A stretch of DNA of 64,000 nucleotides from an uncultured virus (IMG/VR IMGVR_UViG_3300025168_000002) (IMGVR_UViG_3300025168_000002); one strand, 5' to 3'; counted from the first letter of the stretch, positions 6,376-51,795 are shown. Notes: generated from the letters alone by a model not told the origin. Numbers and translations are program-made.

Positions 6376-6549
6376 TTATTTTTTATATGGAAAAACTCTA
6401 TTAAGAGAGTCTCTCCGATCCCCACAACCACAGTCACTCATACCAGCGGCTTTAGCCATTTTATCAGCAACACGATCTAAACCTGTTGCTTTCGTTACTT
6501 TTGCTATTGTATCGCCTAAACCCTTAGACGGTCTATTTACATTTTGCAT
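6376..6549 (-). CDS. Small phage protein (GLGDT...DCGC family)
   Basis: SKGLGDTIAKVTKATGLDRVADKMAKAAGMSDCGCGDRRDSLNRVFPY; ATG at 6549 preferred over the GTG at 6570. Confidence 0.75.
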   Translation of the reverse strand: MQNVNRPSKGLGDTIAKVTKATGLDRVADKMAKAAGMSDCGCGDRRDSLNRVFPYKK

Positions 6550-6656
6550 GAGCAAGTTGTGTTTGGGCACTCACTTACCTCAAAAGATAAGAAGTTCATT
6601 AAACTATTCCATTTACACTGTAAATACGAATACAAAGATATTAATTTTTCTTTCAT
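6537..6656 (-). CDS. 39-aa Cys-containing microprotein
   Basis: Hand-translated MKEKLISLYSYLQCKWNSLMNFLSFEVSECPNTTCSCKM; fills the gap between neighbouring genes. Confidence 0.55.
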   Translation of the reverse strand: MKEKLISLYSYLQCKWNSLMNFLSFEVSECPNTTCSCKM

Positions 6657-6664
6657 TTATTTAG

Positions 6665-6889
6665 CTATCTGTTGCGATCTCTTGAATTAACTGGCGTCGC
6701 TGGGCGAGCAGTTATAAATTGAACATGAGAATCTGGTTTTACCTCTTTAGGAGGCTCTACTGTTTTAGTTTTACCAGGAACACCTGATGTTTTTAAAGCA
6801 ACCTTCTCTTCATAAGTTAAGTTTGCTAAAGCTTTAGGCTCTTTTTTTAATAAATTTTTTTTTGCTGTCTTTGATTTCTTTTTTGCCAT
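6665..6889 (-). CDS. Basic hypothetical protein
   Basis: 74 aa, MAKKKSKTAKK; A-rich leader. Confidence 0.7.
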   Translation of the reverse strand: MAKKKSKTAKKNLLKKEPKALANLTYEEKVALKTSGVPGKTKTVEPPKEVKPDSHVQFITARPATPVNSRDRNR

Positions 6890-6903
6890 AATATTTTATT
6901 TAA

Positions 6904-7101
6904 TTATTTTCTACTACAACCAAAGTTTTTTGCATAGTTTGCCATTTTTACTACAGACTCAGAATAGTTGTCTGTTTTTTTCATGACAGCAGAGGCAGCA
7001 CTGCACGCATCTTTAAATCCGTTTTGTTTTGCCCAAGACGTAAATTTACCTTGGTTAGACTTTTTTATTTCAGGAAATTTATTTTTAGTTCTTCCCGCCA
7101 T
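6904..7101 (-). CDS. Basic hypothetical protein
   Basis: 65 aa, MAGRTKNKFPEIKKSNQGKFTSWAK...KMANYAKNF. Confidence 0.75.
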   Translation of the reverse strand: MAGRTKNKFPEIKKSNQGKFTSWAKQNGFKDACSAASAVMKKTDNYSESVVKMANYAKNFGCSRK

Positions 7102-7103
7102 AA

Positions 7104-7295
7104 TTATCTTAAATGATCGTGTCTTACTATTTTTGCTGTGTGTCTGTAAGACATTGATTTGTCAGCACCGTAAGAATGACCATACATTTTTTTTGACATT
7201 CCTTTTGATTCATCTCTTCTGTCTTTCATTGATTGAGACTTCTTGCCATTTCTAGCTCCTAGTGACTCATTTAACCTGTCGTTATATCCTTGCAT
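7104..7295 (-). CDS. Basic hypothetical protein
   Basis: 63 aa, QGYNDRLNESLGARNGKKSQSMKDRRDESKGM. Confidence 0.75.
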   Translation of the reverse strand: MQGYNDRLNESLGARNGKKSQSMKDRRDESKGMSKKMYGHSYGADKSMSYRHTAKIVRHDHLR

Positions 7296-7311
7296 AATTT
7301 TATTTTTTATA

Positions 7312-7482
7312 TTAATAACTTGAACTCATTTTCTTTTCCATACCATATCCTGGGTTATTCTTCTTGTTACCACCCATTTCTTTTGTAAACTGTCCTGCTT
7401 GAGCCTTTCCTACTGCGTTATAAGGAAAAACTTTTTTCATATTTTTGCCCGTATCAGGACATTTGTATTTTACTGTAGGCAT
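7312..7482 (-). CDS. 56-aa basic microprotein
   Basis: Hand-translated MPTVKYKCPDTGKNMKKVFPYNAVGKAQAGQFTKEMGGNKKNNPGYGMEKKMSSSY; TAATG coupling to the upstream ORF. Confidence 0.75.
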   Translation of the reverse strand: MPTVKYKCPDTGKNMKKVFPYNAVGKAQAGQFTKEMGGNKKNNPGYGMEKKMSSSY

Positions 7483-7643
7483 TACTTTTTATTTTTATTC
7501 ATTTTAGCTCCAGCAATTCTATCAGCTTGAGTAATCTTCGGGTTATTGTCTATGCCTGCTTTTATACTAAGCATTCCGAATTTATCTATGTCTTTATTTT
7601 TAAACCCTATACTGTTGTAGTCTTTTTTATTTTTATTTCTCAT
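7482..7643 (-). CDS. 53-aa basic microprotein
   Basis: Hand-translated MRNKNKKDYNSIGFKNKDIDKFGMLSIKAGIDNNPKITQADRIAGAKMNKNKK. Confidence 0.75.
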   Translation of the reverse strand: MRNKNKKDYNSIGFKNKDIDKFGMLSIKAGIDNNPKITQADRIAGAKMNKNKK

Positions 7644-7645
7644 GA

Positions 7646-8296
7646 TTACATTCTTTTTCTATTAGGATTTCTTCTGTTAGACTTAATCTTGTTTATTTTC
7701 TTTTTAACAACTTTTTTAACTGTTTTGCCTACTTTTTTTGCAATTCTTTTAGCTCCTCTACCTACACTTCCAGCCACAGTGCCTATCGTTGCTCCGCTCA
7801 TAGCTGCTCCTGCTGTTCTTGCTGCTAACATTCCCACAGCTTTTCCTACTGGAGTTGTTGCTAAAGCTGTACCTGCCGCTAATTTTACTCCCGTTTTAAT
7901 AGCCTTACCTACCCCTCTAACAGCTGCTTTTCTTCTTGATTTACGAGTTGTTACAGTGTCTACATCTCTGCTATAACCCGTATTTAAATTTCTCTTTGTT
8001 CCTTTTTTTGTAATAGTAGCTCCTTTAACACCTTTTTTATAAGTTTTAGTTGTAGTCAAACTTCCAGATTTTCCCTGTGTATTTCTTCTTTTAGTAATAG
8101 TATTTGCTTTCTTTTTTCCTGCTGCAAATTCTTTTTTCTTTTTAAGAGTACCGTCTTTACGAAGCTTAGTAACAGTCTTAGTTCCGTCAGTTCTTGTTGT
8201 TGTAGATTTTTTAATTCTTCCTACCGCCTCACCTTTTCCTTTTCTTCTTCTTTTATTTACAACAGTAGTTTCTCTTACTTGGACTTTTTTTGCCAT
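7646..8296 (-). CDS. Highly basic (K/R/T-rich) protein
   Basis: 216 aa with very few acidic residues and a central Ala/Gly hydrophobic stretch; own promoter at 8320-8327. Confidence 0.75.
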   Translation of the reverse strand: MAKKVQVRETTVVNKRRRKGKGEAVGRIKKSTTTRTDGTKTVTKLRKDGTLKKKKEFAAGKKKANTITKRRNTQGKSGSLTTTKTYKKGVKGATITKKGTKRNLNTGYSRDVDTVTTRKSRRKAAVRGVGKAIKTGVKLAAGTALATTPVGKAVGMLAARTAGAAMSGATIGTVAGSVGRGAKRIAKKVGKTVKKVVKKKINKIKSNRRNPNRKRM

Positions 8297-8339
8297 GGCT
8301 TTTTTTAGTTTTAATTTTACAAATATAAGAATTAATTAA

Positions 8340-8636
8340 TTAGCATCTCCAGCGTCGTAACGCCATCGCCTTTCTTGTTGGCCTTCCCTTCTTATCTCTT
8401 AAGGGCCCTTTCATTCCACTCATTCTAGCACAAAAAGATTTTCTTCTTGAAGCTCTTTTACCTGTAGCGTTTTTTTCTGTTACAGCCGTTTTTAATTTAC
8501 TGCCAGGATTTTTACGTCTATATGCCGCAACACCTTTCTTAGTCATTCCAGCTCCAGACTTAGTAGATCGGTAGTTCCCTCCCTTTCCTGTAGACCTGGC
8601 TATCCTTCCTTTTTTAGTTCTTCCTCTAGTGGCCAT
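8340..8636 (-). CDS. Basic phage protein (DUF6321-like)
   Basis: GAGMTKKGVAAYRRKNPGSKLKTAVT...RRKSFCARMSGMKGP...RKAMALRRWRC, a motif I recall from aquatic phages. Confidence 0.75.
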   Translation of the reverse strand: MATRGRTKKGRIARSTGKGGNYRSTKSGAGMTKKGVAAYRRKNPGSKLKTAVTEKNATGKRASRRKSFCARMSGMKGPLRDKKGRPTRKAMALRRWRC

Positions 8637-8637
8637 A

Positions 8638-9381
8638 TTAACTTATTCTGTTGTTTTTTCCAGTCACCAAGTTTCTTACTTTTCTTTTCTTTCTTATTAC
8701 CTTTTTGCCAGTAAAAGCATTTATTGAAGATACAATTTTTTTAATTTTGCTTTTTTTCTTTCTTCTATTTACTAAATAGCCTGGTACTTTTTCAGGTTTG
8801 AACTCTTTTTCTTTAACAGGAGTTGGTTTTATTTTTCTTGGAGTAACTTTAACTAATTTTTCTTTCTTAGGTGGCGGGCCAGGTTTTAACTTTTCCACGT
8901 CTCCAGATCTCATGCTTTCATTAAATAGCTTTAATTTTTTTGGTTTATAAGGCTGTCTGAATTTACCATACTTTTCTCCAAATGGCCCCACCCCTGTTTG
9001 ATTTGGCGCGTATCTATCTACAGCTACGTTTGTTGTGTCTGAATCTATTTTTCTTCCTTCGCGATTTTGTTTTCTTGCGTACTTATTGTATTCATCTCTA
9101 GATAATGTGTCTCCCGAGGTATTCATTATTACATTCGGCCTTCTGTCAGGTTTGCTAATACGAGCTTGAGCTATATCAGACGTTTCTTTATCATACGCCG
9201 CTTTAGACTTTTTGTTTTCTTCTTTAGTTTTTGTATTGTAATCAATAATAGAATTTAATTCTCTTTGATTTTTTAAAGCTTTATTATAAACAGCTAAAGA
9301 ATCGCTATTTGCTTTTAGTCTATTTAAATAGCTAGTATTTTTTTTCCCATCTTTTCCTCCTGTTCTGCCTTTAGTACCCAT
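8638..9381 (-). CDS. Basic hypothetical protein
   Basis: 247 aa, K/P-rich, starts MGTKGRTGGK. Confidence 0.7.
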   Translation of the reverse strand: MGTKGRTGGKDGKKNTSYLNRLKANSDSLAVYNKALKNQRELNSIIDYNTKTKEENKKSKAAYDKETSDIAQARISKPDRRPNVIMNTSGDTLSRDEYNKYARKQNREGRKIDSDTTNVAVDRYAPNQTGVGPFGEKYGKFRQPYKPKKLKLFNESMRSGDVEKLKPGPPPKKEKLVKVTPRKIKPTPVKEKEFKPEKVPGYLVNRRKKKSKIKKIVSSINAFTGKKVIRKKRKVRNLVTGKNNRIS

Positions 9382-9497
9382 TACTTTTTCTTATGTGTAT
9401 ACCCTTTCTTTTTCAGTTCAAGATGTTTTTTATAAGACGTAGCCTTAACTACTTTATCTTTCTTATACATATTATGTATTTTAAATTTTTTAGCCAT
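9381..9497 (-). CDS. 38-aa basic microprotein
   Basis: Hand-translated MAKKFKIHNMYKKDKVVKATSYKKHLELKKKGYTHKKK; TAATG overlaps at both ends. Confidence 0.75.
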   Translation of the reverse strand: MAKKFKIHNMYKKDKVVKATSYKKHLELKKKGYTHKKK

Positions 9498-9622
9498 TAT
9501 TTTTTATTTCTTTTAGGAACACAGTTAGGAACTTTTCTTCCTCCTTTTATTTTCATGCCGTATGCTTCATATCCTTTCCAACAAGCTTTTTTTAATCCCT
9601 TCCCTGTTTTTCTTTTTGCCAT
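9497..9622 (-). CDS. 41-aa basic microprotein (CWKGY...VPNCVP motif)
   Basis: Hand-translated MAKRKTGKGLKKACWKGYEAYGMKIKGGRKVPNCVPKRNKK. Confidence 0.8.
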   Translation of the reverse strand: MAKRKTGKGLKKACWKGYEAYGMKIKGGRKVPNCVPKRNKK

Positions 9623-9626
9623 TATA

Positions 9627-9860
9627 CTATTTTTTTTTATAAATTGATTTTCTATTTTTAACTAAACGCCCTGTGTTTCTTAATGAATTTTTCATAAAAG
9701 ACTTTTGACCTTTTACGGCTTTACCTCCAGAATGTTTTTGACCGCTTTTGTAAAAATCATAAAGCGTTGAGGCCACTGCTAATGGCCCCGCTCTTCTTAT
9801 AACTTTTGTTGCAACTTTTTTTACTGCGGATTTAAGAACACCTTTTTTATTAACTGCCAC
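9627..9860 (-). CDS. Basic hypothetical protein
   Basis: 77 aa, GTG start, K-rich. Confidence 0.65.
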   Translation of the reverse strand: MAVNKKGVLKSAVKKVATKVIRRAGPLAVASTLYDFYKSGQKHSGGKAVKGQKSFMKNSLRNTGRLVKNRKSIYKKK

Positions 9861-9863
9861 GCT

Positions 9864-10298
9864 CTATTTAGTCATTTTTTTAACTTTCATCTTCATCTTC
9901 TTATACATTTTTACATAAAGATTAGAGTCTCCAAATATTGCTTTTTTAATGTTTTGTTTTGGAGTATTGTTCATTACGTTTTTAATCTTTTGTTTTACCT
10001 TTTTCTTGATCGCCTTTGGAATTTGTTTAGTAGGAGTATTCATAATACTCTTGTTCTTTGGATTTGGTTTCTTTTTATTCTTCGGCTTTACAGTTACTTT
10101 ATCTTTTCTCTGCATATCAATCATTTTCCTTTGATAAGGTGTCATGACATTTGTCCTAGTATTATCTGTTCTTACTGTTCTTGTCTTTGGCTTGTCTGGA
10201 TTAGATGTTGTTTTTTTAACTACCTTTTTCTTTTTGTTCTTAGGGGTTGGTGCGTTAACCATTGGAGGAGTTTTTTTCTTGTATAAATTTTTAGACAT
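9864..10298 (-). CDS. Highly basic K/P/M-rich protein
   Basis: 144 aa with an internal repeat MNTPTKQIPKAI / MNNTPKQNIKKAI; promoter at 10330-10337. Confidence 0.7.
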   Translation of the reverse strand: MSKNLYKKKTPPMVNAPTPKNKKKKVVKKTTSNPDKPKTRTVRTDNTRTNVMTPYQRKMIDMQRKDKVTVKPKNKKKPNPKNKSIMNTPTKQIPKAIKKKVKQKIKNVMNNTPKQNIKKAIFGDSNLYVKMYKKMKMKVKKMTK

Positions 10299-11876: not shown

Positions 11877-12008
11877 TTAGCCTTTAAAGATAGCATAAAT
11901 TTTTACGCCATTTTTGTTATTAATTAGTTTTCGTTCTATCTTTTCTTTTGAAACGACAACCGCAGGTTGGAGTTTCGGGTTTTTTGAATTTAACTTACGC
12001 TTTTTCAT
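11877..12008 (-). CDS. 43-aa basic microprotein between groEL and groES
   Basis: Hand-translated MKKRKLNSKNPKLQPAVVVSKEKIERKLINNKNGVKIYAIFKG; overlaps the groEL stop and ends 3 nt before groES. Confidence 0.65.
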   Translation of the reverse strand: MKKRKLNSKNPKLQPAVVVSKEKIERKLINNKNGVKIYAIFKG

Positions 12009-13608
12009 TTGCCCTTTTATGTGTTATAATTGCGTTTGTACTTAAAATAGTTGTAGCTACAGACACAGCGTTCATTAAAGCGTTCCTAGTTACCTTCAGC
12101 GGATCAATAACTCCCATTTTAAACATATCTCCAAACTTCTCGTTCTTTACGTCATAACCCTGGCTAGCCGCCTTGTCATAAATATGTTCTACAATTAAGT
12201 GTTCTTCCATTCCTGCGTTAGAAATTATTTGATTCAATGGCGATATTAATGCTTCTGACAATATTAATACCGCTGCTTTGTAATTATTATCTTCACAAGA
12301 GTTTAATAATTTTATTAGCTTTTGTGACTCTCTAAATAGTGCTAGCCCACCACCTGACAGTATTCCTTCTTCTAATGCTGATCTAACAGCACAAACTGAG
12401 TCATCTACTCTATCATACTTTTCTTTCTGTTCTACATCTGAATTTCCACCTACATAGATACACCCTATAGCTCCTGCTAAACTTGCGATACGCTCATTTA
12501 TAAACTCACGATCATCTTTTATCTTAGTATTCTCTTGCTGTACTTTTAGATCTTCAATTCTTTTTGTAAGCTCGTCAGTAATATTATTATCTTTTAATAT
12601 AATAGTGCTCTCAAGTCCTGATATAATTTTGTCAGCATGACCCAGATCCTTTACTGTCATTAAACTTAAGTCGTCTCCAGTTTTTTCGCTATAGTATGTA
12701 GCTCCTACTGCCATAGCTATATCTTGCATAAGCTCATGAGTCTTGTATCCAAAGCTAGGTGGCTGTATGCTACAAAATTTTAATCCATTACGAGCAACAT
12801 TAGCGGCTAAAGTATTTATAACATTAGCAGAACATGGTGCAATAATTAAAAGTTTCTCTCCGTTATTTATTACTGGCTTTAAAACTCCTTCTATTTGTAA
12901 TATATTATTTATCTCTGCGTCACAAACTAATATTTTTACATCTTCTAGTATACACTCGTCTTTCTTTTGGTTATTAATAAACATATTAGAAGAATAACCC
13001 CTAGCTATTTTTATTCCGTTAGTAACCTCTGCGTATGTATCTGCCGTCATAGACTTCTCTACAGTTACTATACCGTTAATTCCTACCTTATGATAAGCGT
13101 CAGCTATAATAGTACCTATCTCTTTGTCATTATTAGCAGAGATACAGGCAACATCTAATAACCTAGCTTGTGTAACCGCCTTAGAACTCTTCTTTAAGTT
13201 CTTTATAACAGTCTTAGTTAAAGTGTTAATGTATTTTATAACCTCAGTATGATTTGTTTTCTCAGACAAAGTATCTTGCCCTGCCATAACTAGAGCTTCA
13301 GTTAATACAATAGCCGTAGTTGTTCCGTCTCCAGCTGTATTAGCCGTTCTACTAGCCGCATCTTTCATCATTTGTATTGCAAGGTTTTCTATAGGATCAT
13401 CTAAAAATACAGATTGAGCAACAGTAACACCGTCTTTAGTTATTGTTATTCCTGCTGTATGATTAGGCGATTCTATTAGAACGGTTTTACCCAAAGGGCC
13501 TAGTGTACTTTTTACTGCTTTAGAGATTGACGTTATTCCTTTGATTAATTTTTGACGAGCTTCATCATCAAAAGATAACTGCTTAGGTATGTATCCTTGA
13601 GTTTCCAT
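11995..13608 (-). CDS. groEL: Chaperonin GroEL (phage-encoded)
   Basis: TLGPLG, ITKDGVTVA, AGDGTTTA, ISANND, EEGILSGGG, GVIDPLKV; no GGM tail. Confidence 0.97.
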   Translation of the reverse strand: METQGYIPKQLSFDDEARQKLIKGITSISKAVKSTLGPLGKTVLIESPNHTAGITITKDGVTVAQSVFLDDPIENLAIQMMKDAASRTANTAGDGTTTAIVLTEALVMAGQDTLSEKTNHTEVIKYINTLTKTVIKNLKKSSKAVTQARLLDVACISANNDKEIGTIIADAYHKVGINGIVTVEKSMTADTYAEVTNGIKIARGYSSNMFINNQKKDECILEDVKILVCDAEINNILQIEGVLKPVINNGEKLLIIAPCSANVINTLAANVARNGLKFCSIQPPSFGYKTHELMQDIAMAVGATYYSEKTGDDLSLMTVKDLGHADKIISGLESTIILKDNNITDELTKRIEDLKVQQENTKIKDDREFINERIASLAGAIGCIYVGGNSDVEQKEKYDRVDDSVCAVRSALEEGILSGGGLALFRESQKLIKLLNSCEDNNYKAAVLILSEALISPLNQIISNAGMEEHLIVEHIYDKAASQGYDVKNEKFGDMFKMGVIDPLKVTRNALMNAVSVATTILSTNAIITHKRANEKA

Positions 13609-29570: not shown

Positions 29571-29810
29571 AATCTTCATATTAACCAGCTCTTTTATTTC
29601 TAAAATTTCTGCACATTTTTCGTATTCTTCTGTGTATATAAAGTAATCAATAAGAGTATCGTAAAGTGGATCGTTAGGAGCAAAGGTACTTTTCTTTGGA
29701 TCGTGAAGAAAATAAAGCTCATCTTCTTCGTTTAAAAAGTCATTAACAGTTTTTTTTCCAGTTACAATATAATATGTATTGTTCATACATTTGTCTTCGT
29801 CAAATATCAT
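29562..29810 (-). CDS. Hypothetical protein with UVR-like C-terminus
   Basis: LIDYFIYTEEYEKCAEI. Confidence 0.65.
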   Translation of the reverse strand: MIFDEDKCMNNTYYIVTGKKTVNDFLNEEDELYFLHDPKKSTFAPNDPLYDTLIDYFIYTEEYEKCAEILEIKELVNMKILN

Positions 29811-32800
29811 CTTCTAGGTTTTTTCGGTTTTGAAGGTTTTGATTTTCTAGGGTTGTCCTTTCTCCATTTTCTTTTGTTTCTTATATATTCCTGATACTTT
29901 GTTAAATCTCTGTTGTATTTTTCTGATCTCTTTTTAAATATGTAATTTTTATATGTATTAGGGTTGTTTCTTTTTAGTTTTTTTAGCTCATCTTTTGTAT
30001 AGGTAACATCATTTTTACCCATATCTTTATATATATCCTTAATAAGTAATTCTCTAACATCTTTATATAAAGGAACCATACCTACATTACCAAGTATTTC
30101 AATAGGAACTCTTTCAGTCTTTTCTCTTTTTTGTCTTTCTCTACTTTCAGCTTCTTTAAAATCTTTTTCACTATATTTTTTTATACCAAAAAGTACAGAA
30201 TTTGCTAGGGGAGTGTACGCCCCTAAAAAACTTGTAAGAAACTTGTCTCCATCAGCCGCATTACCTAACACATCGTATTGAATTGCGTCTCTATAACGAT
30301 CATATTCTCCGTCTCTTAAATCTTGACCAAAACCTTCATTACCTAGTTCTATAAAATATGCTTGTGCAGCTCTATTTAAGTTACCAAAGTTTCTTCCTAA
30401 AAATAAACTTGTAAAGGAAGTTGCAAGAGACTGGGCTAGTTGCTGCTCTATTGCTTTAGGATCTTCATCCTCATCATCCAGGCCTAACGCATCAAACAAT
30501 GCGTCATTCATTACCTTTAATACAAAAGTATAAGCTGTCATTCTTAAACTAACTGCGGCTAAAAGTTGTGCTCCTTGACCTCTTGTTCTATCTCCTTTAC
30601 CCATTAACTCATAAGTACCTTGACGAGCTGATATAAATTCTTGTTTCAAGAAGTTTAACATAAAACTATTATAATTAGCAAAAACTGCTCCAAGAACTGT
30701 TTTAGGATTAGCATCTTTTATAGACCTCATAAAAGGATTGTCAGAAGACCCAACAGTATTAGTCCATCTATCAGCGGCGTCAGTTGATGCGTCTAAAGCA
30801 TCTTTGTTTTCTGTCATATAAACCTCATCATTAGCTTCAATTTTTGTCCAATCAGGGTTTTTACCAGTTTCTTTTTTAAAAGTGTTTGCAAAAGTAGCTT
30901 TCCAGAATGGCTGAGTAATCATCTTATCAGGTGCACTAATAATAGAGTCTGCTATTATAGCAACACCTTTACCCCAGTTTTTTCCAGACAACCTCCATAT
31001 TTGCATAATCTTGTTACCCATTTTACTACTTAAAGTGTCTGCTGCTGTTTCTCTAGTGTTTAATAAACCAGTGTCAATTTTAGAAGAATTTAATCCTGAT
31101 CCTGTTACCCTTGTTGTTACTGAAGATCCTAAGTTCTTCATTATAGTAGATAAAGAAGTGGCATTTGGAAGACTATTTGCTTTGCTAATACCTTGAGCAA
31201 AAAGAACAGGGTGTGTAATGGCAAATTGCATATTGGCTATAACCTCAGCACTAAATCTTTTCGCACCAGCCAGCATAGTTCTGTAACCTAGTTTTTGTAT
31301 ATTACTTACAATTTCATCTGCAAAAGTATTATCTGTGTAGCTATCTACCAATACATTATTAATAACTTCTTTTTGAGCGTCAGCTAACGCTGTCAATATT
31401 CTTTGAGTGTTTTCATTAACACCAGCAGGATTTTTTTCATTTACTGTACTTATTAATTTATTTACAGCGTAGTTAGACTCCTTAACACCGTCAGTCATAT
31501 AATAATCTAAATTGGTAAACTTAGAACCTCTTGCTGAGGCCTGGAAAGAATCCCAGTATATAGGACTAACAGCTCCTGTACGCTCTATACCAGCTTTAGA
31601 CTTTGTAGAAGGCCTGTTAACAGACGAAGAACTCATAAAGTTTTCTATAATATCTTTGTTGGGATCAGAAACCTTATCGCTTATACTAGGTTTAACAGCA
31701 ATATGAACATAATTTACTCTAGGGATAAAACCTTCCCCCCTTCTTTCTGCTGCAAATTGAGCCTTCTCCTGGTTTTTAGTATCTATGTCTTGTAAAATTT
31801 TTAATGCTTCTTTTTCTCTTTTGCTAAAACTATCAAAAAGTTTATCATTATTCAACTCTCCGTCTTCAACAAAATCTTCTTGTAATTTTTTTAATAAATT
31901 TAATACTCTTTTGTCTGGATTCTCTGTTCCTTTCTCATAATCTCTTATACTCTCATCAAGCCACTTATCAGCACTTTGTAATTTTTTATCTCGCAACTCT
32001 GGATTAGAGATGTATTCTAACTGAATACGGTAAAGCATTTGCTTATATTTAGACTCAATAATTTTGTTTGGATTTTTCAAAAACTGTCTATTTAAAAGTT
32101 TAGCCGCCTTTTCTCTTAAGTTTCCATCCTGCTGGTTTGCAGTCTTAAAAGAGGAATAAGCTTTAGCCATAGGTTTAAATAGTGAATTATAAAGATCCAT
32201 AGATCCAAAATTATTTAACAACTGATCAATACCATATAAGGTGTTTCTTTTTATAGCGTTTAAAGCGAAGTTGTCTTTCTTGTTGAACAAAGACGTAACT
32301 TTTGCGTATAATTTTGAAACGCTTAGAAAATCAAATTTGCTAAATTTATCAGCCACTTTAGCCACATTTTTATTAGCATTTAGTTTTGAACTTAAGTTAC
32401 TGATTAATGAAACTGGCATATAACCTTTATTCAAAGAGTCTACTGTTCGTATAATTAATTTTAAATCATCCACAGACATTCCTTCTAAAGCCGATATATC
32501 TTTTATTAATTTATTAAAGGCATAAGCTGCTCTTCGTGATATTTCAGAAGGAAAACTTTTAGGGCTTGCTGGGGCAGTTCTGTCGTTATCTACTTTAATA
32601 TTATCAATCTCATTAATTAAAACCTTTTTTTCTTCAGCTATTTCTTCTTCTGTTTTAGGTTGAGCATCTGGCTTACTATTAATGTCTTTTTTATATTTTT
32701 TCATCAAAGCGGCATCCTCCTCTGTAATAATATTTTCTTTAAGCATTTTAGCTATGGTGTCTAAATAATTAACCTTACCGTTTTTATATAATACTTTTCC

Positions 32801-35800
32801 CTCAAAATTATTAAAAGCCTGAGTAAGCTGTGGAAGAGTTTGTTCCTGTTCTGCTACAGCTGCTAATACCTCTTGAACTTTTTCAGCCATAATTCCAGCC
32901 TCCTCTACATTATCAAAAGCTTTAGTACGCTGCCCTATTTGTTCTATAATAGATTTATAAGTTTTATATACTTTATTTGGAATAACAGATGGGTCTATAT
33001 TTACCAATGATGATAATTGTTCTTCTAACGATATAGTTGCACCATCTTCTTTACCAGCTAACATTCTACCTATAAGTTTCTTAATATTTTTTCCAGCTTG
33101 TGCCGCTAATTTTCTTAATGTTTTTTGTTCTGACTTTTCAGATATCTCACTTAATACTTTCTTTATATAATTAACAGTTTTGTCTTTTGATTTTTCATTG
33201 TCAAACGAAGTTTTTTCAATTTGATCCATAATTAAAGACATTTGTTTAAAAGAAATTTTATCGTCTTCTCTTAATGTTTTTAGATAATCTCTTATAGATT
33301 TAAATCCTTTTGAAAAATCCATATCAGTTAAACGCTTAAATATAGTTTCGGATATTTCGTTTTGCAACTCTACATTTTCCCTTTCTTTGTCTTTTAATTT
33401 AGCCTCCTCTTGAGCAACCTGGCTTTGTGTTGAGTCTACCTTTTTGTTTATTGCCGCTTTTACATTTGATTTTGTTGGCCTTACTCCTGCAACCTTCTTA
33501 AACCTGTCTTTTAAAGCATTGAGAATAGCTCTAGGATTTCTTTTTGGTTCTTTCTCAGAAAGAATATAATCAAAGTATTCATCTAATACATCCTGAAAAG
33601 TTTGCCCACTTTCCTCAGCAATATTTTCTATCATATTATCAAAACCTTCTCCACCCATATTTGTTTCTCTACCTAACGAATCTTTAACAGGCTTGCTAAT
33701 AAATTTCCACGTTCTACTTCTTTTATCTTTAGGAAGATTATTTTTGTCATTATACCTAGCAAAATCAGCTTCTGAAATTGTACCACGGTAAGTTCTAGAG
33801 TCTTCGTTTTTTTGATCTTCTTGTGACTGTTCCTTTTTGTCTTTAGATCTTTCTTCTTCTTGCTCTATAGCTTCAGCTATCTCTCTTATATTTTCGCTAT
33901 TTTCTGCTATATCTTCATTATAATTATCCTCTGTCATACTAGGATTAGCATCAACTTTTTTACCGTCATCTACACTAGTATCTTCAATTATTTGTTTTTC
34001 AGCTTTAGCTAATTTTCTACCTGTAAGAGGTTTTCCTTCTTTGTCATTTATAGAAACAACATCTCCAGCGTCATCTTTAACTATTGTGTAATTACGAACA
34101 GCATCTTTTATTTTCGTCTTCTTCTCGTCATCAACGACCTCCTTTGGCGACTTGTCTTTGTTGGGGTTTTTCTTTCCTTTCTCATTGGGAGCGACTGTAG
34201 GGAGTCCGTCTCCATCTCCCATTTCTGGGCTATCTTCGGCAGGTTTTGGTGCATCCACTTTCTCTGTGCTTGACTCTTGAACGGCATCGGTTTTTTCGTT
34301 TAATTGGGTTAATCTATCTTGTCTTTTATCTTCTACAGCTTGATATGCGGCTTCTCTTTCTTCGGTATTCATACCCTCTTTTTCCGTCATCTTGTACTCC
34401 TTACCTTCATCTTTCAGTTTTTGATTTTCTTCATCCACCTCATAGTATTCATCATCTAAAGCATCTATCTCATTTTCATAATCAGTTTCTATTTCGTCAT
34501 TTAAAGCATCTTTCTCATCCTGAGTTAATAGGTTTTCTGTAGTAACACCACTCAATTCTTCTATTTCAGCTTTAATTTCTTTAAGTCTTTTTTTGCCCGC
34601 CTCTGTGTCGTTTCCTATAAATTTATTTTTCTCTAACTCTAAATCAACAAGCTTATCTAAAATTGCTGGATTATCTACCCCAGCTTCTTTTAACTTTGCT
34701 TTAATATCTTCTCCAGCTATAAGACGCATTTTTCTTTTATCATACGCTTCCTTTAAAATTGGATCATTGTCAATCTTTATATCCATTCCCATAAAAGCTT
34801 CATCACTAGAATCATAAATAGCTTCTGCCATCAATCCAGAATCTACATTTTCTCCTTTTATTTTATACTCAGCTACTTTCCCCCTATACTTAGTTATTGC
34901 ATAAGTTAACGGCGTCTTACCTAAACCTCCAATAGTTTCAAAACCTATCTCTCTAACATCTAAAGCGTCTACACCTTCTGTTGCTAAAATGGCAGCTGTT
35001 TCTCCTGTACCCCCACCTATAGCATCTGCTGCTCCTGTTATAATTTTACGTCTAGTAGTAGAGGCTCCAGCTTTTGCAGCCCTCTTTACTAGGGTACTTC
35101 CTGCTCCTGCCGCTAACGCATCTATAGTACCAATTATTCCTCCTCTTCCTAATGAGTTTAATCTAATACTTGATAAAGCTTCTTCATTATTTAAAATTTT
35201 TACTATATTTTCCTCATTCATTTCTAAACCTCTGTCATCTAATTCTTTTTGCAAGAATTGAGCAAACGACAATCCTGTTTCTAACGCACCACCAGCTGCA
35301 CCAAAAGCTAATCTTAATGTAGTTGGATTAAACGCTGCTCCTAACGCTACAGGGACAGCACCCACACCCCCACCTAAAGCCCCTACGGCTGCTCCTCCTG
35401 CTGCGGCTGTACCTATAACCGTACCAGCAGCTCCTAATGAAGCAGGGTTAACCATTTGAGTAATAGTCTCTGCTGCTAATTGAAAAATTACACTTGGGTT
35501 AGCGGCCATACCTTGCAAAAAACCAATAGCTTTATTTTCAGAATTATCATAAATATTATTAAAGTTAGCCATTTCATCTGTCTGCCCGTTAGCATTTAGT
35601 GCTGCCTGTGCAGCTAAGAAATCTTGTATATCTTCCGATGTAGCATCAGCACCATCATAAAGCAACTCTAGCCCTTCATCAGCGGTATTACCCTGAATAA
35701 ATCCTGACTTACCAGCTCTATATATATCTCCAATAAAATCAGTAACTGAGTTTTTACCCACCAACTCTTCAAGCATGGTATCTTTTTCTTGAGACCCCCT

Positions 35801-36247
35801 AATTGCAAATCTACCTTTGTTGTATAAATCTTTTGTTTGATCTTGAGGAGTTACCTCTACTGGAAATTCTGGTGTATCATAAATTGAATCACTTGCTCCG
35901 CCAGGTTGAACTACACTACTTGTGTTAAACTGAACAGGCTCTACCTGTGAGTTAGCGGTTTGATCTAAAAAGTCCGATGAAATATTTTGATCCGTTGGAT
36001 CGGAAACAGACTCCGTAGGATCCGTTGGAGAAAAAGGCTTGAAATCGTCTTTTTTTTTTACCCCCCAAGCTGAAGAAAATGTTTCAAAATCTGTTTCAGT
36101 GCTTAAAAGCTTGTTTTCAATGCCTAAGTCATACAACCCTTGCTTTACTCTTTCGTCTGCCGTAGAAAACTGTTCAAAAGAAGTTTCAGCACTTAATAAT
36201 TTATTACTAAGATATAGGTCGTAAAGTTGTTTTAATTGCTCTTCCAT
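29807..36247 (-). CDS. Large internal virion (DNA ejection) protein
   Basis: 2146 aa; duplicated N-terminal motif, Ala/Gly hydrophobic segments, acidic linker, helical C-terminus; last of the trio after the GNAT gene, as in podoviruses. Confidence 0.65.
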   Translation of the reverse strand: MEEQLKQLYDLYLSNKLLSAETSFEQFSTADERVKQGLYDLGIENKLLSTETDFETFSSAWGVKKKDDFKPFSPTDPTESVSDPTDQNISSDFLDQTANSQVEPVQFNTSSVVQPGGASDSIYDTPEFPVEVTPQDQTKDLYNKGRFAIRGSQEKDTMLEELVGKNSVTDFIGDIYRAGKSGFIQGNTADEGLELLYDGADATSEDIQDFLAAQAALNANGQTDEMANFNNIYDNSENKAIGFLQGMAANPSVIFQLAAETITQMVNPASLGAAGTVIGTAAAGGAAVGALGGGVGAVPVALGAAFNPTTLRLAFGAAGGALETGLSFAQFLQKELDDRGLEMNEENIVKILNNEEALSSIRLNSLGRGGIIGTIDALAAGAGSTLVKRAAKAGASTTRRKIITGAADAIGGGTGETAAILATEGVDALDVREIGFETIGGLGKTPLTYAITKYRGKVAEYKIKGENVDSGLMAEAIYDSSDEAFMGMDIKIDNDPILKEAYDKRKMRLIAGEDIKAKLKEAGVDNPAILDKLVDLELEKNKFIGNDTEAGKKRLKEIKAEIEELSGVTTENLLTQDEKDALNDEIETDYENEIDALDDEYYEVDEENQKLKDEGKEYKMTEKEGMNTEEREAAYQAVEDKRQDRLTQLNEKTDAVQESSTEKVDAPKPAEDSPEMGDGDGLPTVAPNEKGKKNPNKDKSPKEVVDDEKKTKIKDAVRNYTIVKDDAGDVVSINDKEGKPLTGRKLAKAEKQIIEDTSVDDGKKVDANPSMTEDNYNEDIAENSENIREIAEAIEQEEERSKDKKEQSQEDQKNEDSRTYRGTISEADFARYNDKNNLPKDKRSRTWKFISKPVKDSLGRETNMGGEGFDNMIENIAEESGQTFQDVLDEYFDYILSEKEPKRNPRAILNALKDRFKKVAGVRPTKSNVKAAINKKVDSTQSQVAQEEAKLKDKERENVELQNEISETIFKRLTDMDFSKGFKSIRDYLKTLREDDKISFKQMSLIMDQIEKTSFDNEKSKDKTVNYIKKVLSEISEKSEQKTLRKLAAQAGKNIKKLIGRMLAGKEDGATISLEEQLSSLVNIDPSVIPNKVYKTYKSIIEQIGQRTKAFDNVEEAGIMAEKVQEVLAAVAEQEQTLPQLTQAFNNFEGKVLYKNGKVNYLDTIAKMLKENIITEEDAALMKKYKKDINSKPDAQPKTEEEIAEEKKVLINEIDNIKVDNDRTAPASPKSFPSEISRRAAYAFNKLIKDISALEGMSVDDLKLIIRTVDSLNKGYMPVSLISNLSSKLNANKNVAKVADKFSKFDFLSVSKLYAKVTSLFNKKDNFALNAIKRNTLYGIDQLLNNFGSMDLYNSLFKPMAKAYSSFKTANQQDGNLREKAAKLLNRQFLKNPNKIIESKYKQMLYRIQLEYISNPELRDKKLQSADKWLDESIRDYEKGTENPDKRVLNLLKKLQEDFVEDGELNNDKLFDSFSKREKEALKILQDIDTKNQEKAQFAAERRGEGFIPRVNYVHIAVKPSISDKVSDPNKDIIENFMSSSSVNRPSTKSKAGIERTGAVSPIYWDSFQASARGSKFTNLDYYMTDGVKESNYAVNKLISTVNEKNPAGVNENTQRILTALADAQKEVINNVLVDSYTDNTFADEIVSNIQKLGYRTMLAGAKRFSAEVIANMQFAITHPVLFAQGISKANSLPNATSLSTIMKNLGSSVTTRVTGSGLNSSKIDTGLLNTRETAADTLSSKMGNKIMQIWRLSGKNWGKGVAIIADSIISAPDKMITQPFWKATFANTFKKETGKNPDWTKIEANDEVYMTENKDALDASTDAADRWTNTVGSSDNPFMRSIKDANPKTVLGAVFANYNSFMLNFLKQEFISARQGTYELMGKGDRTRGQGAQLLAAVSLRMTAYTFVLKVMNDALFDALGLDDEDEDPKAIEQQLAQSLATSFTSLFLGRNFGNLNRAAQAYFIELGNEGFGQDLRDGEYDRYRDAIQYDVLGNAADGDKFLTSFLGAYTPLANSVLFGIKKYSEKDFKEAESRERQKREKTERVPIEILGNVGMVPLYKDVRELLIKDIYKDMGKNDVTYTKDELKKLKRNNPNTYKNYIFKKRSEKYNRDLTKYQEYIRNKRKWRKDNPRKSKPSKPKKPRR
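34108..34287 (-). CDS. Overprinted 59-aa basic protein nested in the +1 frame of the large virion gene
   Basis: MPFKSQAQRKWMHQNLPKIAQKWEMETDSLQSLPMRKERKTPTKTSRQRRSLMTRRRRK; A-rich leader; locally atypical codon usage in the host gene. Confidence 0.7.
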   Translation of the reverse strand: MPFKSQAQRKWMHQNLPKIAQKWEMETDSLQSLPMRKERKTPTKTSRQRRSLMTRRRRK

Positions 36248-40093: not shown

Positions 40094-43000
40094 TTAATTA
40101 CAAGGGAATAAATTAACACTCAATACTTCTCCGTTAGCCCCAACCTCTATTACACTTTGAGCTCTACTAAAATAAAATCCTACATCAGCTGGTACACCCC
40201 CAAAACAACAATTAGCTGGGTTAGAACCGCAAGCTTTATACGCTATATCTCCAACCACAGGCTCGTTTGTTGATGGTGCACCAGGTGCTGCCGAATGCCA
40301 GAAACCTGCGTACGCCCCTGGATTGTTAAGCCATAAACCGTTAGGGCCATTTCCTCCATTACAAGCCAAAGCAGCAGTTGTTTGCACAGCAGGATCCATT
40401 ATAAAATTAGACGGGCCTATACAGGGTTGATTAACCGAACACCCAACACAAGCATCTGCCTGACTTACTGAAGAATAACAAAAGTCGTTATTTTGTCTAT
40501 CTCTTAAATCCCAAACTAAATACAATGTTTGTGTGCTAGACGTTATAGATAAATTGGCTGAAGTAGCTTTGTAAATTTGATTAACTCCATTAGCATCTGG
40601 CTGAGAACCTATAATAGGTGTAGACTCATTAGTTAATAACGTTAAATCAAAAGTAGACCCACTAGACGCTGGAACAGCGTTACTTGTTATTGCATAAAAT
40701 CTATTTTCTGTATCATTAAAAACATAAGTATCATTTGGAAACTTGTTAGCTTTCATTGTAACTGTAGATCCATTACTAGGATATAATCCTATAGAAGTCT
40801 GTCCTGTATTAATTGAATACGCACTTACATTATTTGTTGCACTAAAAGTTACTTGATTTGAATCTAAAGGACTAGTAAACTGTCCGTTACTCCATCTGTA
40901 TTCGTAATGAATAGTTTGTGCTCCTGAACTAATTAATCCGCTAATTGGAGTTCCTAAAACAACTTGTACTACATTTAAAGTTTGAGTTGTAACGCAATTA
41001 AAAAACAAATTATAAGAAGAAGATGAGTTAGGGGTAATAGTAATAGTAGCTGTAGTAGGGAATGGAGCGGCTTTTTGAAATGTTATTACACTGGAAGTAG
41101 TTAGATTATTGCTTGTTGTAATATTATTGTTCCAGTCAATTATAGAATTTATATCCATTCCTGGTGAAGCAGAATTTATCACAACATCTACATTACCAGT
41201 AGCTGTTCCTAGCTCAACAGTTAAAGTTAAAGGTGTAGAGCTGTTAATTCTTTGTATTTGAGCACCACAATCTATAGTCGAGGCAGGGAAAGGAACAGGT
41301 GTAGAGTTAGAAGAAAAAACATATTCGTTCATATAAGGATCGTAACCCCCTAGTTTTTGTGTGTTTAGTTGGTCTGCAAATTTATCTCTAAAATAAGACC
41401 TCATTCCATAAGTAGATATAACCTCTAACTGATCGCTTTTCATTGTTGCACCAGTAAGTTTTAGTATAGCACCTCTCTTTGTATCACTAAAATACACATC
41501 TCTTCCCCAGCTTGTAAAACTTTCAGGGTTAAAACTTATTCCATACTCTTCTATTCTAGCTACTTGCTGACCTAATATTTCTGGAACAGAAACTATAACT
41601 CCGCCGCCAGTAGAATCACTTAATAAATTTTTATTAACCAAGACATAAGATATTTTGTCTTCTTGTAAAAGTAATATATCTGTTTCTCTTGAATGTAATT
41701 TCATTATAGGCCCGTACACTAACTCACAGTCTTTAAAGTTTACCAAGCCTAAATTAAATTCATTTAAATTATTTACATTACTTGTTCCGCTATATACCCC
41801 GCTATATGTTAAGCTCGCTAATCTGTCTGCTTCTTTAAATTCATTATTAGACACCGCTGTTACTCTTTCTCCTAAAATAAAATCTTTTGCCGTAGACAAA
41901 TCTCTATACCTATAGCTTTCAACTCCATTACCATAAGTAAAACAATCGTGAAAAGGTAGGGTAACGATTGCAGGAATACCTGAGGAAATAACCTGGTTTT
42001 GACCAACGATTGTTCCGTCCCCATAATGAGCAAGATCTCCATTTATATCAGGAAGAATATTATACATTTCAGAAGAGTCATAAAACAAGCTTGGATCGGA
42101 CTCAGCTGGTTTTGTCTCAAAAGCCATAAAGTTGTCGTTTATGCTAATAGAAATCTGTGCTTCAATACGCAAATGAAAGTTTACTCCAGGAGCAGGGTAA
42201 CACCCTTCACTACACATTCTCATACCTAAAAACAAAGGACTTCCTGAGTTTGTCTGTACCCAATAAAACTGCATTTCTTCGTCAACTTCAGCAGGAGTAT
42301 CTCCTGGTAAAAACACTTGATCGTAATATCTAAAAGTAATATCTTCATCTCCTCTAGAAACCATAAAAAGAGCTGGGTTAATATTTTCTTGATTCCAAAA
42401 ATCTCTAAAACTTACCGCATCTTGACTAGCTTTTACTATGTAGTTTTTAGGAGAACTCACACCTAATAAAGACTTTCTGCAAAATACAGACGAATCATTT
42501 CTTCTTGTTTTAAATCTCATGCTTACGACTGATCCTAAAGGAATAGCAATAGGTGCTAATGTGATAGGTCTGTGAACAGGATACTCTATGAGAGGATTTT
42601 CTTGTAAATTTGTTTGGCCAAGAACATTATAAGTTCTTGCGTCAAGAAATTGAAGATCTATTATTGAAAGAAGATTTGTTCTAGCACTATACCCTTGAGG
42701 TTGTAATTTCATATACAGCCCTGCTGGAGCACCTGTTGGCAGTGGGGATACTGGCGGAGTTATGGTTGTATCTCCTGCGGCTAAAGCCTCTACCTCTAAA
42801 ACTGTAGTTTCAACTAAACCTAGCACGGCATCTCCAGTGCTTTCAACTTTAACAGTCAGTATATCTCCCTTAGAAACTAAAGAGGTAGACTCTCCTTGAA
42901 GTCTAACGTATGAAATATTAGCTTGTTGAAAGTCTTGAAATATTTGATTGCTATATATAATATTATAATCTCCAAAAGAAGGCTTTAAAACAAACTTATA

Positions 43001-50649: not shown

Positions 50650-51795
50650 TTATAATTTTTTTAAACTTCTAATTTTTAGTCCTCTACCACTGTCATTAAA
50701 GTTTGAGCCTAACGCTCTTATCTTTGATCCGTCTTTCATAACGCTTTGTTGAGATTGTCTTATATCCATATTAATGTTTTTAGATTTTTTAGAAACATTA
50801 TCTACGGTATCAGACACTCCTTGGTCATAAAAAAACTTAGCATACTTTTCTGGATTCATCGCCATTGATAAAGCCTTATGATAACCATTAACATCAGTAA
50901 TCATTCCATCTTTATCCATGTAATTACTCAAAAAATTATTAACATCAGACTGCTTGCTTTTTAATTCTTGAGAATCTCCAGGCTTAAAAGTAAAATTCTT
51001 TTCTCCTACATTGAACTCAAAACCTTTGAACTCACTGCCAAAAACCTCATCAGTTTTCTTGAGAAACCAATCATACTTTTTTTGGTTTGCTTCTTTAACA
51101 GTTTTAGACTCCTGTATGTAACTTTTATAAGCACTTAAACTTTCTTTGTCAGATTCAGATAACCCACTCCCACTTGACTCAAGAGGAATTTTAAATTTAT
51201 CTTTTTGAACAACGAAATATTTTTTCGCTTTTGCAAGTTCTCTTTTTTTAGCTAATTTTAATTTCTTAATATCTTTTGGATCATCTTCTTCCTCATCGTA
51301 AGAAAATTTATCCTCCATCAAATCTTGAATATCTATAGCGTCTAAACCTTCTTCGGTTTCACCATAATAACTAGCTAATAACTCATCAGAGTCCATGGTA
51401 TCAAAGTCTCTTTGTAATTTATAAAAGTCTTCAATACCACGCCCTGTATCCTGTTTATATTTTAGATATGCCGAAACATCTTCAGGTAATTCGTCATTGT
51501 CTTTTGTTTGCGTAAACAAATCATCTACTGAAGAGATATCTTTATCATATCTATTTTTTATATATTTAAGAACGTCTTCGTCATTTAACTCTGACGAGGG
51601 AGTTTCTTCCGTTACAGCTGACTCGGACTGATCCTCATCTTCTGTGTTTTCCTTTTCCGTTGTTTGTACTTCTGCTACAGGATTAGAAACATTTTCTTGT
51701 TGTTCTTGCTTTTCTTCATGCTTATCTAAAAGTTCTTGCTCTATCTCCTGTCTTGATTTTTCTTCTTTTGTAACTTCTTTTACTGTAATTTCCAT
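50650..51795 (-). CDS. Scaffolding protein
   Basis: Very acidic coiled coil between portal and capsid genes; basic C-terminal tip. Confidence 0.7.
   Translation of the reverse strand: MEITVKEVTKEEKSRQEIEQELLDKHEEKQEQQENVSNPVAEVQTTEKENTEDEDQSESAVTEETPSSELNDEDVLKYIKNRYDKDISSVDDLFTQTKDNDELPEDVSAYLKYKQDTGRGIEDFYKLQRDFDTMDSDELLASYYGETEEGLDAIDIQDLMEDKFSYDEEEDDPKDIKKLKLAKKRELAKAKKYFVVQKDKFKIPLESSGSGLSESDKESLSAYKSYIQESKTVKEANQKKYDWFLKKTDEVFGSEFKGFEFNVGEKNFTFKPGDSQELKSKQSDVNNFLSNYMDKDGMITDVNGYHKALSMAMNPEKYAKFFYDQGVSDTVDNVSKKSKNINMDIRQSQQSVMKDGSKIRALGSNFNDSGRGLKIRSLKKL

What the first reader, a model, noticed from the sequence alone, without database searches (positions are those of the whole stretch)
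34108..34287. Hidden overprinted gene inside the giant virion protein gene
Seen: within the acidic linker (DAVQESSTEKVDAPKP...) the +1 frame opens at ATG 34287 after an A-rich leader (AACCCAATTAAACGAAAAAACCG). It encodes MPFKSQAQRKWMHQNLPKIAQKWEMETDSLQSLPMRKERKTPTKTSRQRRSLMTRRRRK (59 aa, just under the track cutoff). Host-frame codons turn GC/CpG-rich over this span. From memory, MPFKS.AQR.WM..N.P.IA..WE.ET is the start of a widespread unannotated small phage protein that also occurs as a free-standing gene. Its basic character links it to the 6.4-10.3 kb array. Inference: real dual coding, with a basic peptide made from the same mRNA as the acidic linker, perhaps as chaperone or packaging partner for the ejection protein.
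Basis: partly seen in the sequence, partly recalled or inferred. Interest (0 to 1): 0.8.

Follow-up and report, generated by a model that had tools for sequence, protein, structure and literature searches.

The report
Hidden small gene inside phage genes
A small, very basic protein gene is written one base out of step inside this phage's giant virion-protein gene; related phages carry it there, inside a different head gene, or standing alone, so it looks like a real but usually unannotated gene that can lodge inside others.

Summary
Confirmed. A 59-codon ORF (minus strand, 34287→34108) lies in the +1 frame of the 2146-codon gene of a marine Bacteroidota-type podophage. Length alone is unremarkable, but three tests support a real gene:
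- A profile built only from long, gene-called proteins of other genomes scores it 58.6 bits (next best 6.1).
- Inside the overlap, selection follows the +1 frame, about 8-fold in relatives not chosen by the peptide; outside it follows the host frame.
- Its leader scores like true starts.
Of 280 sampled loci, 129 are nested in the giant gene, 77 in the scaffold-position gene and 7 free just after the giant gene. Cultured Elemovirus phages carry it unannotated. Some close relatives lack it, so it is accessory.
The family is old and large (3,407 clusters), so this is probably a captured gene, not de novo overprinting; the acidic linker is the passenger frame. A dedicated chaperone role for the ejection protein is unsupported. 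Likeliest role: a late, head-associated nucleic-acid-binding protein (inferred). Translation is not shown. This scan found the same family nested on other genomes; my paper searches found no description.

The parts
34108..34287 (-). Nested gene, 59 aa + TAA, in the +1 frame of the giant gene; 18 K/R vs 4 D/E
   Evidence: selection tests
34183..34287 (-). Conserved N-terminal module (aa 1-35: MPFKSQAQR..M..N.P..A..W.........LP); predicted helices 6-15 and 17-26
   Evidence: alignment; AlphaFold2 model (pLDDT 85-92 over aa 1-20, pTM 0.40)
34111..34182 (-). Variable K/R-rich tail (aa 36-59)
   Evidence: nested peptides are 40-66 aa with median net charge +10 to +13
34288..34307 (-). Bacteroidota-type A-rich initiation region (A at -13, -12, -6; C at -3), unstructured. 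The TAA at 34302-34300 also closes the +1 frame 4 codons upstream of the ATG
   Evidence: 6 of 643 internal +1-frame ATGs, this one included, score as high; MFE -1.6 kcal/mol, 190 of 200 shuffles fold at least as well; PMC6847099 passages
29807..36247 (-). Host gene, 2146 aa, last giant gene of the virion operon; ejection/cargo role inferred from position
   Evidence: phrog_32588; weak match to the Elemovirus structural protein; phi38:1 gene order
33758..34570 (-). Acidic, hydrophobe-poor, hypervariable linker of the host protein (about aa 560-830) that houses the overlap; replaced by unrelated sequence in relatives without the nested gene
50650..51795 (-). Scaffold-position gene (between portal and major capsid; the name rests on position and acidity). 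It is the alternative host of the nested gene in a sister clade; there is no copy in it here
6379..10298 (-). Context only: array of 12 small, mostly basic ORFs, one of them DUF6321; not homologous to the nested gene

Best explanation
This is a real, separately translated gene nested in the +1 frame of a late structural gene (about 0.95 for that part). Ribosomes start internally on the late mRNA at an unstructured A-rich leader of the Bacteroidota type and make a protein of about 7 kDa: a two-helix N-terminal module plus a K/R tail. The gene belongs to an old, widespread family and was most likely captured into the host gene rather than born there. Its -1 frame reads as an acidic, disorder-like linker once T is avoided at wobble positions that would create stops, so it can sit in flexible regions of internal head proteins at little cost. 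The host frame is only required to stay open. The most likely function (inferred, about 0.5-0.55) is an accessory, head-associated nucleic-acid-binding protein made late and loaded into the particle, where the basic tail neutralises DNA. SHOWN: ORF, frame, homology, selection, leader score, three arrangements, loss. INFERRED: translation, capture polarity, virion location, DNA binding.
For: Selection, as isolated changes per possible change. Codons 9-27, search seed excluded: peptide-silent/host-changing 50 of 1053 vs host-silent/peptide-changing 11 of 1617. Relatives picked by a neighbouring marker gene, not by the peptide: 25 of 325 vs 5 of 512. Scaffold-nested set: 69 of 937 vs 7 of 1342. 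Control, window vs L086: outside the overlap 15 of 2861 vs 328 of 3017; inside 11 of 100 vs 4 of 108. T at stop-making wobble sites: 0 of 712 and 0 of 439 in nested copies vs 173 of 376 in free copies (partly circular, but it explains the GC/CpG signal). Leader: TAA within -15..-10 in 76% of 63 nested leaders vs 14% of 2,413 control ATGs; adenines at -12/-13 stimulate initiation in F. johnsoniae (PMC6847099 passages). ATG at the first position in 119 of 121 and 75 of 75 unique nested copies. One clear copy per genome in all 46 positive genomes of 50 searched; one has a second, weak partial match. Function clues: every host gene or neighbourhood examined in phages is in the late/head operon. 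The module starts at residue 1-3 in 133 of the best 150 hits (my count) on proteins of 45-1122 aa, including a MuF fusion. The distant relative Patience gp10 is expressed, and its basic array neighbours gp11, gp12 and gp111 gave 30-33 stringent particle spectra each (PMC4324244 Table S1).
Against: There is no direct evidence of translation for any nested copy. Patience gp10 is only distantly related (18.8 bits with A4, 9.3 and 0.6 with two other profiles; shuffle maxima 6.6, 8.3 and 5.4). It gave just 1 particle spectrum vs 4 early and 2 late, so it is not particle-enriched like its neighbours. The gene is absent from near-complete close relatives G003 and G004 and from phi38:1 and Panino, so it is dispensable. 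A chromosomal-looking subfamily in Acidobacteria MAGs shows the module also occurs outside phage genomes. A at -3 is not enriched (40% vs 33%). Capture polarity rests on family breadth; the peptide tree is unresolved.
Confidence: 0.55

Rival explanations
1. Real gene, but its product works in the infected cell and is not packaged. It would bind nucleic acid or a conserved host machine (ribosome, nucleoid) late in infection.
For: Patience gp10 is seen more in infected cells than in particles (7 stringent spectra, 1 in particles). The sequence is conserved across phages of very different hosts, and a cellular-looking subfamily exists, which suggests a conserved partner rather than a diverged capsid.
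Against: Persistent location in head operons and inside internal head-protein genes; N-terminal fusion to MuF.
Confidence: 0.27
2. Dedicated chaperone or packaging partner of the giant ejection protein, binding the acidic linker encoded by the same bases.
For: Most giant genes in one clade carry it: 16 of 23 marker-picked loci that reach the giant gene. The two frames have opposite charge.
Against: 77 of 280 loci have it in the scaffold-position gene and 7 have it free. 5 of the 23 loci lack it over at least 2,380 host codons. Host-frame residues in the overlap are not conserved. Opposite charge follows from the frame shift itself.
Confidence: 0.08
3. Not an independent gene but a programmed-frameshift segment: either host N-terminus plus a basic tail (+1 shift), or the module as an N-terminal tag on the host's C-terminal part (-1 shift).
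For: The module is an N-terminal part of many longer proteins elsewhere. 38 of 75 scaffold-nested copies contain a slippery-type heptamer.
Against: A +1-frame stop lies a median of 4 codons upstream (12 or fewer in 115 of 121). The ATG is nearly invariant. The window has no slippery heptamer, only 11 of 121 giant-nested copies do, and free copies have them about as often as scaffold-nested ones (22 of 47).
Confidence: 0.06
4. A by-product: a conserved host-frame motif happens to read as a basic peptide in +1 and is not translated.
For: A +1 ORF this long arises in 216 of 1000 synonymous shuffles. Most loci were selected by peptide similarity.
Against: Selection flips to the +1 frame exactly in the overlap, also in the marker-picked set. 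It matches free-standing gene-called proteins at 58.6 bits. It recurs in two unrelated host genes.
Confidence: 0.03

Closest known systems
Embedded two-component spanins (lambda Rz/Rz1)
   Same: Phage gene pairs that occur in embedded, overlapped and separated architectures (PMC6139136 abstract). That Rz1 lies in the +1 frame of Rz is recalled.
   Different: Rz1 stays with its binding partner Rz. This gene changes host (giant gene, scaffold-position gene, none), has no lipobox Cys or hydrophobic signal, and lies in head/cargo genes, not the lysis cassette.
phiX174 gene E nested in gene D, and de novo overprinted viral genes in general
   Same: Internal overlap on the same strand; disorder in one partner relieves the constraint (PMC8227390 passages).
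   Different: De novo frames have a restricted distribution. Here the nested frame is the wide, old one (3,407 clusters) and the host-frame segment is the unconstrained one.
PHROG 1375 (Barnyard gp9, Patience gp10) and small basic gene arrays between portal and protease
   Same: Shares FxSxAQ..W..A....WA..W...TP. Barnyard gp9 is phrog_1375 at E 3e-24 and scores 31 bits on alignment A4. Basic, in the late operon, function unknown.
   Different: Free-standing, with a basic extension before the module. The window peptide matches phrog_1375 only at E 0.024.
Cryptic out-of-frame ORFs expressed inside Patience genes 20 and 91
   Same: MS evidence that wholly embedded same-strand ORFs are translated in a tailed phage (PMC4324244 passages).
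   Different: Those are poorly conserved and of doubtful function; this one is under purifying selection across many genomes.
T4 internal proteins and their N-terminal capsid-targeting sequence (recalled, not searched)
   Same: Small basic accessory proteins, dispensable, with a conserved N-terminal piece on variable bodies.
   Different: No sequence or structure link was tested; targeting by this module is a hypothesis.

Membership tests
Nested out-of-frame phage gene (architecture) | Wholly inside another CDS, same strand, other frame | tested here: met
Nested out-of-frame phage gene (architecture) | Own conserved start codon and initiation region | tested here: met
   (computational score only)
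Nested out-of-frame phage gene (architecture) | Purifying selection on the nested frame | tested here: met
   with an outside-overlap control and a marker-picked set
Nested out-of-frame phage gene (architecture) | Protein detected or ribosomes mapped | not testable with these tools
   no MS or Ribo-seq data for a nested copy were at hand
De novo overprinted gene | Nested frame more restricted in distribution than the host frame | tested here: not met
   free-standing relatives in actinophages, a cyanophage and Acidobacteria MAGs; 3,407 clusters
o-spanin (Rz1-like) | Lipoprotein signal with lipobox Cys, inside an i-spanin gene | tested here: not met
   no Cys or hydrophobic signal in the window peptide; the host is a 2146-aa virion-operon protein
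PHROG 1375 | Significant profile match | tested here: inconclusive
   window peptide E 0.024; 23 of 34 members match at E up to 1, best 1.6e-5
Pfam DUF3008 (PF11450) | Match to the Pfam model | tested here: not met
   0 of 34 members at E up to 1; only an Atlas lead at 0.83-0.86 to clusters where 14-15% of members carry it
Internal head / DNA-condensing proteins (T4 IP-like; features recalled) | Small, strongly basic, late-operon gene | tested here: met
Internal head / DNA-condensing proteins (T4 IP-like; features recalled) | Present inside the virion | tested here: inconclusive
   only a distant relative has data: Patience gp10, 1 particle spectrum of 7
Internal head / DNA-condensing proteins (T4 IP-like; features recalled) | Binds DNA or the inner capsid wall | not testable with these tools
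   needs a binding assay or cryo-EM
Pervagoviridae (phi38:1-like) for the phage itself | Family-level genome similarity | tested here: inconclusive
   capsid 39% identical to phi38:1, 43% to Elemovirus, 49% to Panino; same gene order; GroEL present. No genome-wide classification was run

The most novel reading that the evidence does not exclude
The gene is a self-contained 'frame-hitchhiking' cassette. Its -1 frame reads as a harmless acidic linker, so with its own A-rich start it can lodge inside flexible regions of internal head proteins. It has colonised at least two unrelated host genes and at least two unrelated podophage lineages, moved between hosts, left again and been lost. Its 35-residue module would be a general head-loading or DNA-anchoring tag that other phages fuse to cargo (MuF, NUDIX, cupin and others).
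Probability: 0.3. Interest if true: 0.85.

Novelty: new variant of a known kind. Interest (0 to 1): 0.65.

Why it matters
Nested genes are known in phages, but the classic ones stay with one host gene. Here one very large, unnamed family occupies three arrangements within a single phage group and is missed by annotation when nested: the cultured elemoA_1-9A record lists only the host CDS there. That gives a natural series (nested in A, nested in B, free, decayed, lost) for studying how overlaps arise by capture of an old gene rather than by de novo birth. It also makes the function of a family of more than 3,000 clusters testable in a cultured marine phage-host pair. And it shows that a recurrent acidic 'motif' in giant phage proteins (DAIQE.ST..VDVQE) is the shadow of another gene, not a conserved host motif.

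Tried and rejected
1. Word-index protein search with the single peptide: 2 candidates, none significant. This is a sensitivity limit; the profile search found 3,407 clusters.
2. Pfam and NCBIfam: no curated family for the peptide or its relatives; no PHROG hit at E up to 0.01 for the window peptide.
3. Solved structures: by sequence, only chance hits and summed repeats of designed beta-propellers at about 3 bits each (rejected). Fold searches: no match at E up to 0.001 in BFVD or PDB (the top BFVD rows are uncharacterised phage proteins); best Z 2.2 in the wide search. None of this excludes a known fold.
4. Complex prediction of residues 1-40 with the major capsid protein: no answer, score 0.00; not evidence either way.
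5. Peptide tree (95 rows, 40 columns): host labels are scattered (10 changes each for giant- and scaffold-nested), but one-clade tests do not reject either group (p-AU 0.48 and 0.22). Repeated moves between hosts are therefore suggested by nearest neighbours, not shown.
6. The careful capsid tree did not finish; the quick tree is used.
7. Sequencing runs: 4 runs of one study hold 84-95% of the words but may be DNA; 7 RNA runs hold 5-9%. No reads were laid, so there is no transcript evidence and no habitat claim from them.
8. Internal promoter: the sigma-70 scan found 2 sites, both on the other strand, vs 3.1 expected; it does not cover Bacteroidota promoters.
9. A second nested basic gene in this window's scaffold or giant gene (lead from earlier scan notes): nothing convincing.
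10. ORF length as evidence: rejected.
11. Paper searches that found no description of this overlap or family: (listings only). The library lacks most subscription papers and bioRxiv supplements were closed, so a mention in a supplement or paywalled paper is not excluded.

Full report
OBSERVATION. The ORF is as described, on the minus strand: ATG 34287 to TAA 34108, 59 aa, 1960 nt into the 2146-aa ORF, hence +1. The window is a Bacteroidota-type podophage. It has terminase, portal, a capsid 39-49% identical to phi38:1, Elemovirus and Panino, a crAss-type muzzle domain and GroEL. The giant gene is the last of the virion operon, as is phi38:1 gp101; its ejection role is inferred from position. 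The overlap lies in an acidic, hydrophobe-poor, hypervariable linker. GC/CpG enrichment is real, but ORF length is not significant: 216 of 1000 synonymous shuffles give such an ORF.

HOMOLOGY. Of the best 80, two of them identical to the window, 72 are nested in the +1 frame of a longer ORF and 8 are free. A profile search found 3,407 clusters at E up to 0.001. The module begins at residue 1-3 in 133 of the best 150 (my count), on proteins of 45-1122 aa; most of the 79 longer ones scanned have no Pfam family, and a few carry MuF, NUDIX, cupin or DUF5661. A profile of 65 such long proteins, which cannot themselves be nested short ORFs, scores the window peptide 58.6 bits against 6.1 for the next of 2,270 segments. 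Cultured phages carry it too. The same weak tblastn hit appeared in 68 Flavobacterium phage records. In elemoA_1-9A I confirmed a 42-aa ATG ORF in the +1 frame of the annotated 11-kb structural gene, with no annotation of its own. Free relatives sit in late-operon small-gene arrays of FlowerPower, S-CBS2, C75C1, 023Pt_psg01 and Barnyard.

WHICH FRAME IS SELECTED. I counted isolated changes between nearest-neighbour pairs. In 62 unique nested segments, codons 9-27, changes silent for the peptide but altering the host occurred at 50 of 1053 possible, against 11 of 1617 for the reverse; no stop appeared in either frame. Those loci were chosen by peptide similarity, so I repeated the test on relatives fetched by a neighbouring 133-aa gene: 25 of 325 vs 5 of 512 (14 sequences). 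The scaffold-nested set gave 69 of 937 vs 7 of 1342. As a control, window vs L086 gave 15 of 2861 vs 328 of 3017 outside the overlap (host-frame selection) and 11 of 100 vs 4 of 108 inside. Nested copies never use T at wobble sites that would stop the host frame (0 of 712, 0 of 439; free copies 173 of 376). This is partly true by definition, but it explains the GC/CpG signal. So the peptide frame is constrained and the host frame need only stay open.

INITIATION. Scored against 53 gene starts of the window, the leader scores 4.28 (true-start median 3.56); 6 of 643 internal +1-frame ATGs, this one included, score as high. TAA within -15..-10 occurs in 76% of 63 nested leaders vs 14% of 2,413 control ATGs, though these leaders are related and not independent. 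A at -3 is not enriched. The region is unstructured. F. johnsoniae initiation depends on adenines at -14..-11, with A-12 and A-13 tested (PMC6847099, passages). A +1-frame stop a median of 4 codons upstream and a near-invariant ATG favour initiation over frameshifting.

ARRANGEMENTS. Of the 14, by eye 8 are scaffold-like, 5 giant-like and 1 probably chance. In the marker-picked census, 23 of 31 loci reach the giant gene: 16 nested, 1 decayed into tandem repeats (L118), 5 without it over at least 2,380 codons, and 1 cut short at 876 codons without a hit. G003 and G004 (98-100% complete), phi38:1 and Panino have no copy, while 46 of the 50 genomes searched, mostly chosen as carriers, have one clear copy each. 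On a quick capsid tree (54 rows; fragments and five genomes with no or weak capsid match left out), the 14 scaffold-nested phages form one side of a branch (SH-aLRT 90). The 4 free copies fall in two places inside the giant-nested group, and G003/G004 fall beside the window, so un-nesting and loss look derived. Nesting also occurs in more distant Bacteroidota-type phages (G032, G043, G044) and in a different, 47-49% GC podophage lineage (G045, G046; phrog_511, giant gene with DarB-like or ParB-like parts). There the peptides are closest to each other and then to free-standing forms. A Cys-bearing subtype occurs in both host genes. These hint at repeated capture and moves, but the 40-column peptide tree cannot prove it.

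HOW IT LIKELY WORKS. Internal initiation on the late mRNA yields a protein with two short helices (aa 6-15, 17-26) and a basic tail. The gene was most likely captured: K/R-rich codons read one base earlier give E/Q/T-rich sequence, tolerated in disordered parts of internal head proteins (inference; disorder relieving overlap constraint is described in PMC8227390, passages). For function I favour an accessory head-associated nucleic-acid-binding protein, from charge, late-operon context and N-terminal fusion to head proteins. The only experimental clue is indirect and mixed. Patience gp10, linked through Barnyard gp9 and phrog_1375, is listed as a virion protein and is expressed, but has 1 particle spectrum of 7, while its basic neighbours have 30-33 (PMC4324244: passages, part 1 of section 3, whole Table S1). 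A non-virion role remains a serious rival. A role dedicated to the ejection protein is unlikely given the host switching and loss.

COMPARISON AND NOVELTY. It works like an embedded gene of the Rz1 or phiX174 E type and, like spanins, shows embedded and separated forms (PMC6139136, abstract). It is not a spanin, not a de novo overprint and not a member of any curated family tested. The listed paper searches found no description. Earlier notes of this scan report the same family nested in a scaffold gene and in giant genes of other genomes. I had reached both arrangements before reading them; they are not independent evidence. What I add here are the marker-picked and outside-overlap controls, the capsid-tree mapping, genome-wide losses and a second phage lineage.

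VERDICT. Real nested gene about 0.95; head-associated nucleic-acid-binding role about 0.55; new variant of a known kind; interest 0.65.

Noticed in passing
L081:3186 (MT497075.1): A second, truncated 10-codon copy of the gene start, with a similar A-rich leader, lies 396 nt upstream of the intact nested copy in the same host gene; it looks like a decayed duplicate.
   Followed up: no
L118, about 12932-13025: Nested copy decayed into tandem repeats of its first codons; the host frame shows repeated DxVQESST units.
   Followed up: partly
window 6379-10298 (-): Array of 12 small, mostly basic ORFs. One is DUF6321; the 41-aa ORF 9500-9622 shares a module with the gene two downstream of an MPFKS-fusion gene in L065 (71% over 24 aa). 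G003 and G004, which lack the nested gene, keep much of the array; phi38:1 showed no match to it.
   Followed up: partly
L088, L089, L101, L106 giant genes: The centre of the giant protein is swapped for unrelated modules, including an HExxH-like stretch (motif name recalled), in relatives that lack the nested gene.
   Followed up: no
L434, L437-L449, L451-L453 (Acidobacteria MAGs) and L450: A distinct chromosomal-looking subfamily of the module with long K/R/A/T tails reminiscent of histone-H1-like proteins (comparison recalled); free-standing among housekeeping-type genes in L438.
   Followed up: partly
L326, L332 (G046, G045): A different podophage lineage (47-49% GC) has the gene nested in its giant DarB-like/ParB-like gene.
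   Followed up: partly
window 52348 downwards (-), inside the portal gene: 77-codon basic +1-frame ATG ORF over the Q-rich portal tail, with a leader that is not A-rich; probably a by-product.
   Followed up: no
L005, about 2950-3000: The host frame is broken 49 nt upstream of the nested ATG, splitting the giant gene; assembly error or real split.
   Followed up: no
P0019: The module joined to an IF-3 C-terminal domain; probably an assembly chimera, left out of the independent profile.
   Followed up: no
L406-L433, L454: Several MAG contigs labelled as unrelated bacteria carry the nested arrangement and are probably mis-binned phage contigs.
   Followed up: no
Patience NC_023691.1 7055-7234: Table S1 of PMC4324244 lists low-confidence (relaxed only) peptides from an unannotated ORF overlapping gp10, the distant relative of this gene.
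   Followed up: no
window 11995-13608 (-) and 40094-45040 (-): Phage-encoded GroEL, and a crAssvirus muzzle-type N-terminal domain on the 1648-aa protein.
   Followed up: no
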